From Escherichia phage LF82-1, in the sequence record PV648359: a stretch of 64,000 bases of DNA; one strand, written 5' to 3'. Both the position numbers and the translations under genes were made by a program. Under the pieces are notes generated by a model. It did no database searches and was not told where the DNA came from. It worked only from the letters and a program-made list of their open reading frames with translations. Shown one piece after another: positions 10,354 through 10,371 of the stretch (within the stretch, counting starts at the first letter, position 1; the number at the start of each line of letters is the position of its first letter).

Positions 10354-10371
10354 GGGAGACTTCGGTCTCCC
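10354..10371 (+). terminator. intrinsic terminator hairpin GGGAGAC-UUCG-GUCUCCC after gene 23
   Basis: 7-bp GC-rich stem with UUCG tetraloop followed by U-rich tract. Confidence 0.7.

What the first reader, a model, noticed from the sequence alone, without database searches (positions are those of the whole stretch)
10354..10371. A reused GGGAGAC-tetraloop-GUCUCCC hairpin at multiple operon boundaries
Nearly the same 18-nt hairpin with a UUCG or GUU loop recurs at 10354, 26336, 34113, 50187 and 58485, with related tetraloop hairpins at 12701, 14376, 17770, 28841, 33173 and 42661. Several are flanked by U tracts on both strands. These likely act as intrinsic terminators and/or mRNA-stabilising 3' ends, and the reuse of one sequence suggests a mobile or selected module.
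Basis: seen in the sequence. Interest (0 to 1): 0.4.

Follow-up and report, generated by a model that had tools for sequence, protein, structure and literature searches.

The report
Reused UUCG terminator hairpins in a T4-like phage
The repeated GGGAGAC-UUCG-GUCUCCC hairpin is this T4-like phage's own version of the well-known extra-stable tetraloop hairpins that end transcription units in T4-type phages, so the finding is real but ordinary.

Summary
The window is bases 1-64000 of Escherichia phage LF82-2, an RB69-like (Mosigvirus) T4-type phage. The hairpins are real and far beyond chance. The exact 18-mer sits at 10354, 34113 and 50187, with a 3-nt-loop version at 26336 and a one-G-shorter version at 58484. 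Two or three more copies lie outside the window.

Each starts within about 30 nt of a stop codon. In 20 of 21 co-directional gene contexts genome-wide, the UUCG loop lies on the transcribed strand. Most copies are followed by a U-rich tail.

Orthologous junctions in T4 and dozens of T4-like genomes (after genes 23, 32, 8, 54) always carry a strong hairpin, but with different, covarying stems. T4's classic gene 32 terminator is one of them.

Two window copies sit directly upstream of T4-type early promoters, which is the published PeSL cassette layout. One sits upstream of a late promoter.

No flanking homology supports a mobile element. Stem reuse within a genome is statistically real here and in T4, and several lineages each have their own "house" stem.

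Verdict: these are known T4-type C(UUCG)G intrinsic terminators and 3'-end hairpins. Novelty is low. The within-genome convergence of stems is a modest extension.

The parts
10352..10373 (+). AUGGGAGAC-UUCG-GUCUCCCAU hairpin 27 nt after the gene 23 (major head protein) stop, with tail UCUUGUUUCU. It lies between convergent gene 23 and a segD-like homing endonuclease gene.
   Evidence: top terminator-like hit; -15.5 kcal/mol, z -3.8; hairpin conserved after gp23 in 59 T4-like loci
26333..26355 (.). AAAGGGAGAC-GUU-GUCUCCCUUU hairpin between convergent gene 54 and alt.-3. It has A/U runs on both sides, so it is a likely bidirectional terminator.
34112..34131 (-). AGGGAGAC-UUCG-GUCUCCCU hairpin 4 nt after the stop of the 30.9-like ORF, with tail UUUGUGCGUUU.
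   Evidence: (z -3.5)
34047..34075 (-). T4-type early promoter downstream of the 34112 hairpin: A-rich upstream element, -35 GTTTAC (34075-34070), 17-nt spacer, -10 TACTAT (34052-34047). Together with the hairpin this gives a PeSL-like layout.
   Evidence: consensus from PMC4122927
50187..50204 (-). GGGAGAC-UUCG-GUCUCCC hairpin 6 nt after the gene 32 (ssDNA-binding protein) stop, with tail UUUUGAGUAU. It is orthologous to the T4 gene 32 terminator.
50127..50155 (-). T4-type early promoter for the frd.2-like ORF: -35 GTTTAC 50155-50150, 17-nt spacer, -10 TAGTAT 50132-50127. About 60 nt are 89% identical to the promoter after the hairpin at genome position 144515.
58482..58503 (+). AAAGGAGAC-UUCG-GUCUCCUUU hairpin overlapping the gene 35 stop. 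It forms the terminator between genes 35 and 36.
   Evidence: (z -4.7)
58509..58516 (+). Late promoter TATAAATA 5 nt after the hairpin. Hairpin plus promoter (58485-58516) is 94% identical over 32 nt to the gene 8/9 junction at genome 160999-161030.
4339..4360 (+). Its last base starts the late promoter TATAAATA (4360-4367) for gene 19.
   Evidence: T4 ortholog GGCCUGU-UUCG + ATATAAATA
12695..12728 (.). 15-bp perfect palindrome AACGAAAAAGGGACC-GUAA-GGUCCCUUUUUCGUU between convergent gene 24 and rnlB. It is a bidirectional terminator.
   Evidence: (-25.3/-23.9 kcal/mol, z -8)
14376..14393 (-). AAGGGGC-UUCG-GCCCCUU hairpin after hoc, with tail UCUUCGUUUU. It is identical to the T4 hairpin after hoc.
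28841..28858 (-). AAGAGCC-UUCG-GGCUCUU hairpin at the end of alt.1, upstream of alt, with tail UUUGGCAU.
17769..17786 (+). UAAGGGC-UUCG-GCCCUUA hairpin containing the uvsW stop codon. The Shine-Dalgarno GGAG of the next ORF follows at once and there is no U tract, so this is an intercistronic hairpin, not a terminator.
33172..33189 (-). UGGGAGC-UUCG-GCUCCCA hairpin directly before CUGAGGAAAUUAUG of the next ORF, with no U tract. T4 has UGAGGGGC-UUCA-GCCCCUUA at the same junction.
42661..42674 (-). GGGAC-UUCG-GUCCC hairpin between nrdB and denA. It sits between an AAGGA Shine-Dalgarno-like motif and the denA AUG 8 nt downstream, with no U tract.

Best explanation
These elements are RNA-level C(UUCG)G tetraloop hairpins that mark the 3' ends of transcription units in a T4-type phage. 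When E. coli RNA polymerase transcribes the G-rich/C-rich stem and the U-rich tail, the very stable hairpin forms in the exit channel and causes Rho-independent termination or attenuation. The retained 3' hairpin should then protect the upstream mRNA from 3'-to-5' exonucleases. These two steps are inferred from established terminator and exonuclease biology and are not shown for this phage. Many hairpins are coupled to the promoter of the next unit. The copies at 34113 and 50187 precede sigma-70-type early promoters, which is the published PeSL layout. The copies at 58484 and 4339 precede a late TATAAATA promoter. The copies at 10354, 12701 and 26336 sit between convergent genes. The position is ancient, but the stem sequence drifts by compensatory change. 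GGGAGAC is the version this Mosigvirus lineage has come to use at many unlinked junctions. The most likely route is ectopic copying or shuffling of short regulatory cassettes during T4-type recombination-dependent replication. It is not an autonomous mobile element.
For: - **Not chance:** 4 matches against 0.00-0.05 expected.
- **Intergenic enrichment:** Hairpins with dG <= -10 are about 20 times denser in the 5.2% of the genome that is intergenic than in coding DNA.
- **Position:** Hairpins begin between -3 and +27 nt from the upstream stop.
- **Strand:** UUCG lies on the transcribed strand at 20 of 21 co-directional sites. At the convergent gene 23 site it faces gene 23.
- **Wobble intermediate:** One relative carries a G.U intermediate on the sense strand (GGAGGC/GUCUCC). 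Its neighbours have GGAGGC/GCCUCC and GGAGAC/GUCUCC at the same gene 41 junction. This pairing works only in RNA.
- **Conserved hairpin after gp23:** In 59 T4-like loci (51-95% gp23 identity) every one has a hairpin of dG <= -10.8 just after gp23. The mean is -15.5, against -4.4 for coding controls. There are 18 different stems and 15 loops.
- **Other junctions:** The same holds after gene 32 and gene 54 and gene 8.
- **T4 orthologs:** These include the classic gene 32 terminator GGGGACC-CUAGA-GGUCCCC-UUUUUU followed by an early promoter.
- **Within the genus:** The gene 32 hairpin is invariant while its flanks vary.
[quoted passage not shown] PeSL stem-loops were shown to terminate transcription in reporter assays.
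- **Wider collection:** The same 18-mer occurs more than 120 times in IMG/VR in unrelated flanks, nearly always followed by a T run.
- **Reuse is real:** 19 identical stem pairs against 3.8 expected, p about 5e-5. T4 gives 9 against 1.2.
- **House stems:** Within-genome cross-site stem identity is 0.376, against 0.150 between genomes. After collapsing identical profiles it is 13/45 against 4.9 expected, P = 0.0006.
Against: - There are no transcript data for this phage, so termination and stabilisation are inferred.
- Several U tracts are short or interrupted: 34113 UUUUGUGCG, 50187 UUUUGAG, 10354 AUUCUUGUUUCU. Termination may therefore be partial.
- The generic terminator scan is not significantly enriched overall (19 vs 13.1, 9 vs 6.2 and 10 vs 6.6), although these hairpins head its lists.
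- Three related hairpins lack any U tract.
- One hairpin outside the window (67204) carries the loop in the antisense orientation.
- The copying mechanism behind stem reuse is not demonstrated. The within-genome test is only partly corrected for shared ancestry.
Confidence: 0.85

Rival explanations
1. The hairpins do not terminate transcription. They act only as RNA processing or stability elements, or as modulators of translation of the next cistron, inside polycistronic read-through transcripts.
For: Hairpins at 17770, 33173 and 42661 have no U tract and touch the next ribosome-binding site. At 42661 the hairpin sits between an AAGGA motif and the AUG, and T4 has a different hairpin in the same arrangement. 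U tracts at 34113 and 50187 are short. UUCG hairpins are linked to several processes beyond termination (PMC3972237 citing Tuerk 1988).
Against: The GGGAGAC copies themselves have 4 or more U directly after the G/C core. Two lie between convergent genes, where read-through would be antisense. Orthologous sites include the experimentally used T4 gene 32 terminator. The same 18-mer elsewhere is almost always followed by a long T run. PeSL stem-loops terminated transcription in reporter assays.
Confidence: 0.2
2. The primary selected function is at the DNA level. The identical palindromes would serve as recombination linkers or binding sites for a phage protein (the site-specific version of the PeSL idea), and any terminator activity would be incidental.
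For: Stem reuse within genomes exceeds chance. Homology with Tequatrovirus RB68 breaks exactly at the cassette next to the gene 32 hairpin. The PeSL papers report crossovers inside stem-loops and speculate about a binding protein. Loops are found inverted between close relatives, which is a DNA-level palindrome event.
Against: A DNA palindrome has no strand, yet the loop is on the transcribed strand in 20 of 21 cases. Stems covary freely across lineages and use a G.U intermediate, so no fixed DNA sequence is required. Copies share only 18-25 nt.
Confidence: 0.1
3. The hairpin is the core of a small mobile element (MITE- or REP-like) that has spread through the genome.
For: The identical 18-mer lies at several dispersed intergenic sites.
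Against: An all-against-all comparison of intergenic regions shows homology limited to the hairpin (18-25 nt). There are no shared terminal repeats or target duplications. Every copy occupies a junction where other T4-like phages already have a hairpin with a different stem, so the sites are old and were not newly inserted. In IMG/VR the 18-mer sits in unrelated flanks.
Confidence: 0.03

Closest known systems
C(UUCG)G extra-stable tetraloop hairpins of phage T4 mRNAs (Tuerk et al. 1988, PNAS 85:1364; cited via PMC3972237, original paper not held)
   Same: Both have a UUCG loop closed by C-G and a G/C-rich stem, lie in intercistronic regions of a T4-type phage, and sit on the transcribed strand. 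T4 itself has about 17 intergenic examples, one of them identical to window 14376.
   Different: Nothing differs in kind. This lineage uses the stem GGGAGAC repeatedly, while T4's most reused stem is (A)AGGGGC.
Conserved Rho-independent terminators of T4-like genomes (Nolan et al. 2006, PMC1524935) and the T4 gene 32 terminator
   Same: The gene junctions are the same: after gene 23, after gene 32, between 35 and 36, and upstream of alt. The layout of hairpin, U tail and next promoter is also the same.
   Different: Stem and loop sequences differ at every orthologous site between T4 and this phage, except after hoc.
PeSLs, promoter-early stem-loop regulatory cassettes of T4-type phages (Arbiol 2010 PMC2839356; Comeau 2014 PMC4122927)
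   Same: The copies at 34113 and 50187 show stem-loop, A/T-rich stretch, GTTTAC, N17, TAnnAT, Shine-Dalgarno and ATG. This matches the PST/T4-type PeSL consensus TTTACW-N17-TAYWAT. A lineage-specific stem consensus was already noted for PeSLs. Homology with RB68 breaks at the edge of the 50187 cassette.
   Different: The same hairpin is also used without an early promoter: between convergent late and early genes (10354, 26336) and upstream of late promoters (58484, 160998). Those positions are in conserved structural modules, not hyperplastic regions. Mini-circle formation was not tested.
Bacterial REP/BIME-type intergenic palindromes
   Same: Both are dispersed intergenic palindromes at the 3' ends of genes that can stabilise upstream mRNA.
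   Different: There is no extended consensus beyond the stem, no clustering into mosaic elements, and a strong UUCG loop with strand bias. Each site is orthologous to a differently sequenced hairpin in relatives.

Membership tests
Rho-independent (intrinsic) terminator | Stable G/C-rich stem-loop in the transcript | tested here: met
   Hairpin energies are -10 to -24 kcal/mol, and in-context z-scores run from -2.0 to -8.7.
Rho-independent (intrinsic) terminator | U-rich tract immediately 3' of the stem | tested here: inconclusive
   Met for 10354, 12701, 14376, 26336, 28841, 34113, 50187 and 58484, which have 4-6 U within about 8 nt of the G/C core, though some tracts are interrupted. Not met for 17770, 33173 and 42661.
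Rho-independent (intrinsic) terminator | Located at the end of a transcription unit, downstream of a stop codon | tested here: met
   The distance from stop codon to hairpin is -3 to +27 nt. The next feature is a promoter or a convergent gene for all GGGAGAC copies.
Rho-independent (intrinsic) terminator | Transcript 3' ends map to the U tract; termination occurs with RNA polymerase alone | not testable with these tools
   No transcript data are available for LF82-2 or a Mosigvirus. A literature search found no T4 Term-seq dataset.
C(UUCG)G tetraloop hairpin class (T4) | UUCG loop closed by a C-G pair | tested here: met
   Met at all listed sites except 26336 (GUU loop) and 12701 (GUAA/UUAC).
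C(UUCG)G tetraloop hairpin class (T4) | Loop reads UUCG in the RNA, that is, on the transcribed strand | tested here: met
   Met at 20 of 21 co-directional intergenic sites genome-wide. The exception is at 67204, outside the window.
PeSL cassette | Stem-loop directly upstream of an A/T-rich element and a sigma-70-like early promoter, then Shine-Dalgarno and ATG | tested here: inconclusive
   Met for 34113 and 50187. Not met for 10354, 26336 and 58484, which have convergent genes or a late promoter.
PeSL cassette | Association with indels or replacement junctions in hyperplastic regions | tested here: inconclusive
   At 50187, frd.3 is absent relative to T4 and RB68, and homology to RB68 starts at the Shine-Dalgarno of the frd.2-like ORF. 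Other sites were not examined.
PeSL cassette | Recombination between copies (mini-circles, deletions) | not testable with these tools
   This needs inverse PCR or long-read population sequencing.
Mobile element (MITE/REP-like) | Shared sequence beyond the palindrome, defined ends, target-site duplications, and empty sites in relatives | tested here: not met
   Copies share only 18-25 nt, or 32 nt for one pair that includes a late promoter. Relatives have other hairpins at the same junctions rather than empty sites.
Rfam RNA families | Match to a curated covariance model at gathering score | tested here: not met
   There were 0 matches in the 64-kb window.

The most novel reading that the evidence does not exclude
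Terminator stems in T4-like phages may evolve in concert within each genome. Unlinked, anciently conserved terminators (after genes 23, 32 and 8) tend to carry the same 'house' stem within a lineage. This stem is GGGAGAC here and GGGAGCC or GGGGACC in other lineages, while T4 is mixed. That pattern would imply frequent ectopic short-patch conversion or template switching among terminator palindromes. It would keep identical 18-25 bp linkers dispersed through both early and late gene modules. This extends the PeSL shuffling idea beyond early-promoter cassettes, for example to terminator-plus-late-promoter cassettes such as 58485-58516 and 160999-161030.
Probability: 0.4. Interest if true: 0.4.

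Novelty: already known. Interest (0 to 1): 0.2.

Why it matters
As found, the result mainly helps annotation. It marks the transcription-unit ends, the bidirectional terminators and the promoter-coupled cassettes of an unannotated Mosigvirus. It also separates true terminators from intercistronic hairpins that touch ribosome-binding sites. The compact 18-nt hairpin with its short tail is a natural candidate part for synthetic biology. The only aspect with wider interest is the within-genome convergence of stems. If confirmed on a proper phylogeny, it would give a quantitative handle on ectopic short-patch recombination in T4-type phages and on how regulatory cassettes help mosaic genome evolution.

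Tried and rejected
- **Rfam:** The scan of the window found no known RNA family.
- **Mobile element:** An all-against-all BLAST of 124 intergenic regions found homology among copies confined to the hairpin, so I rejected this idea.
- **Universally optimal stem:** Among 74 IMG/VR hairpins of form GGG-NNN-C-UUCG-G-NNN-CCC-UUUU, AGA accounts for only 2, close to the uniform expectation. I rejected this idea.
- **Base composition alone explains reuse:** The column-shuffle null gives 3.8 identical pairs against 19 observed. I rejected this idea.
- **T4 record:** I fetched the full T4 GenBank record hoping for annotated terminators, but it has none. I used its sequence instead.
- **Literature access:** The Tuerk 1988 paper is not held, so it is cited second-hand. 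A literature search for T4 3'-end mapping data found nothing usable.
- **Generic terminator scan:** It ranks these hairpins at the top, but its total counts are not significantly above shuffles. I did not use it as evidence of enrichment.
- **RegB and BsaI ideas:** I considered a link to RegB (GGAG) cleavage or to the BsaI-like GGTCTC site inside the stem. I had no test for either, and T4 stems mostly lack GGAG, so I dropped them.
- **Gene 41 junction:** The hairpin there is present in only a subset of lineages, so I left it out of the house-stem statistic.

Full report
**Identity of the window.** The window matches bases 1-64000 of Escherichia phage LF82-2 (PV648360.1, 169,999 bp, circular map) over the regions compared: 100% over a 6-kb query, and a single mismatch (window position 40914) across the first 50 kb. 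Its nearest named relatives (mobillu, ATK47) belong to Mosigvirus, the RB69-like genus of T4-type phages. Gene order follows T4 from gene 16 through gene 38/t. I fetched the whole LF82-2 genome and the whole T4 genome for comparison.

**Observation.**
- GGGAGAC-N4-GTCTCCC occurs exactly at 10354, 34113 and 50187. The same stem with a 3-nt loop occurs at 26336. Dinucleotide-preserving shuffles give 0.00-0.05 expected matches.
- The sites at 34113 and 50187 read CGAA on the + strand, so they are UUCG hairpins in - strand transcripts.
- The site given as 58485 is one G-C pair shorter (GGAGAC) inside a 9-bp stem.
- All six 'related' hairpins are present. Five are C(UUCG)G hairpins and one (12701) is a 15-bp palindrome with a GUAA/UUAC loop.
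- Genome-wide there are about 22 intergenic C(UUCG)G hairpins. They include another exact copy at 160998 (gene 8/9 junction) and a GGAGAC copy at 92222 (after gene 41).

**Anatomy.**
- Only 5.2% of the genome is intergenic, yet hairpins with dG <= -10 kcal/mol are about 20 times denser there than in coding DNA.
- The UUCG hairpins start between -3 and +27 nt from the upstream stop codon.
- In 20 of 21 sites flanked by co-directional genes, the loop reads UUCG on the transcribed strand. At the convergent gene 23 site it faces gene 23. A DNA palindrome has no such polarity, so selection acts on the RNA.
- Tails after the G/C core are U-rich for the GGGAGAC copies, for example UUUUGAG, UUUUGUGCGUUU, UUUUCGCG and AUUCUUGUUUCU.
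- Three contexts occur:
  - Between convergent genes: 10354 (gene 23 and a segD-like endonuclease), 26336 (gene 54 and alt.-3) and 12701 (gene 24 and rnlB). The last two have A/U runs on both sides.
  - Upstream of a T4-type early promoter with an A-rich upstream element, GTTTAC, a 17-nt spacer and TAnTAT: 34113 and 50187.
  - Upstream of a late promoter TATAAATA: 58484 and 4339, and 160998 outside the window.
- Three related hairpins (17770, 33173, 42661) have no U tract and abut the next ribosome-binding site. They are intercistronic hairpins, not terminators.

**Comparative evidence.**
- T4 has hairpins at the orthologous junctions with different stems:
  - after gene 23: AGGGAACC-UUCG
  - after gene 32: GGGGACC-CUAGA-GGUCCCC-UUUUUU (the classic gene 32 terminator), followed by an early promoter
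  - after 30.9: GAGGACUCC-UUCG
  - between 35 and 36: GGGACCC-UUC plus TATAAATA
  - between 8 and 9: AAGGGAGCC-CAUG plus TATAAATA
  - after hoc: AAGGGGC-UUCG, identical to window 14376
- In 59 IMG/VR loci encoding gp23 relatives (51-95% identity), every locus has a hairpin of dG <= -10.8 (mean -15.5) just after the stop. Coding controls average -4.4, and only 0.7% reach -10.8. There are 18 distinct stems and 15 loops, mostly stable tetraloops such as UUCG, GNRA and UACG.
- The same holds after gene 32 and gene 54 and after gene 8, where hairpin plus TATAAATA is conserved in nearly all genomes.
- Within Mosigvirus the gene 32 hairpin is invariant while its flanks vary.
- At the gene 41 junction, three relatives show GGAGGC/GCCUCC, then GGAGGC/GUCUCC with a G.U pair on the sense strand, then GGAGAC/GUCUCC. 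This is a textbook compensatory path that works only in RNA.
- Nolan et al. [quoted passage not shown]

**Is the reuse meaningful?**
- The exact 18-mer occurs more than 120 times in IMG/VR. Its flanks are unrelated, contig G+C ranges from 0.30 to 0.63, and it is nearly always followed by a T run. It is therefore a convergently used terminator hairpin and not a marker of one element.
- It is not globally favoured. Among 74 hairpins of form GGG-NNN-C-UUCG-G-NNN-CCC-UUUU, AGA accounts for 2.
- Within LF82-2 the six bases next to the loop are identical in 19 hairpin pairs, against 3.8 expected under a column-shuffle null (p about 5e-5). T4 shows the same effect with a different favourite stem, AGGGGC (9 vs 1.2, p about 2e-4).
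- Across genomes, stems at the unlinked gene 23, gene 32 and gene 8 junctions are identical within a genome in 37.6% of comparisons, against 15.0% between genomes. After collapsing identical profiles the count is 13/45 against 4.9 expected (P = 0.0006). Several lineages show one stem at all three sites: GGAGAC here, and GGAGCC or GGGACC elsewhere.
- This points to within-genome homogenisation or cassette shuffling. Shared ancestry is only partly controlled in the test.
- Copies share only 18-25 nt. The exception is 58485-58516 versus 160999-161030, which share 32 nt covering hairpin plus late promoter. There is therefore no sign of a mobile element.

**Relation to known systems.**
- These hairpins belong to the C(UUCG)G class first described in T4 mRNAs (Tuerk et al. 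1988, cited). They also belong to the conserved intrinsic terminators of T4-like genomes.
- The 34113 and 50187 modules fit the PeSL definition (stem-loop plus early promoter) of Arbiol 2010 and Comeau 2014. Those authors showed terminator activity for such stem-loops, recombination between copies, and lineage-specific stem consensus sequences.
- Consistent with PeSL-type shuffling, homology between LF82-2 and Tequatrovirus RB68 begins exactly at the Shine-Dalgarno of the frd.2-like ORF next to the 50187 cassette, and frd.3 is absent.

**Verdict.** Some related hairpins are not terminators, and 'mobile' should be read as 'shuffled or homogenised regulatory cassette'. The phenomenon is already known for T4-type phages. 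The only modestly new element is quantitative evidence that terminator stems converge within genomes, including in late-gene modules. No transcript data exist for this phage, so termination efficiency and mRNA stabilisation remain inferred.

Noticed in passing
window 49663-49701 (- strand); also 37489-37518, 39616-39639, 49250-49280; genome 140991-141029 (L003:40991-41029): There is a second recurrent intergenic inverted-repeat family, e.g. GATAGGGCTAT-GTTATA-GTAGTCCTATC. Its arms bracket the -10 box (TATAGT) of T4-type early promoters. The 39 nt at 49663-49701 are 100% identical to a site 91 kb away. Transcription from the promoter would start inside the 3' arm, so the repeat acts at the DNA level or only in read-through RNA.
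   Followed up: partly
window 42652-42684 (- strand), nrdB/denA junction: An AAGGA Shine-Dalgarno-like motif is followed by the GGGAC-UUCG-GUCCC hairpin, 8 nt and then the denA AUG. Folding would bring the motif to normal spacing, giving a split ribosome-binding site. T4 has AAGGA followed by a different hairpin (GUGGGCC-GCAA-GGCCCAU) at the same junction.
   Followed up: partly
L399 vs L400 and L405/L409 vs L406 (gene 54/alt.-3 junction, orthologous to window 26333-26355); L002:17204-17221: Close relatives differ by an inverted loop within an identical palindromic stem (GAAA vs UUUC; UCAC vs GUGA). The one LF82-2 hairpin with its loop in the antisense orientation (genome 67204) shares its tail UUUGUGCRUUU with window 34113. 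This suggests palindrome-mediated loop flipping by template switching.
   Followed up: partly
window 50098-50125 and L413 (RB68 frd.2/frd.3): There is a mosaic junction here. The frd.2-like ORF is 96-97% identical to Tequatrovirus RB68, but homology stops at its Shine-Dalgarno. LF82-2 lacks frd.3 and has the gene 32 terminator plus an early promoter there instead.
   Followed up: partly
window 18403-18424 (- strand, inside the uvsY.-1 ORF): A 9-bp UUCG hairpin (GCCAGGAUA-UUCG-UAUCCUGGC) lies inside a coding region and is conserved in T4 at 114805-114826. A second intragenic one lies in gene 40 (genome 93977; T4 22329).
   Followed up: no
L002:16782-16856 vs L002:17100-17177 (genome 66782-66856 / 67100-67177): A 78-nt direct repeat at 90% identity lies in two neighbouring intergenic regions upstream of motA and the adjacent small ORF. 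It is probably a duplicated early promoter region.
   Followed up: no
window 40914: There is a single-base difference between the window and PV648360.1 over the first 50 kb, so the window probably comes from a sibling LF82-series isolate.
   Followed up: no
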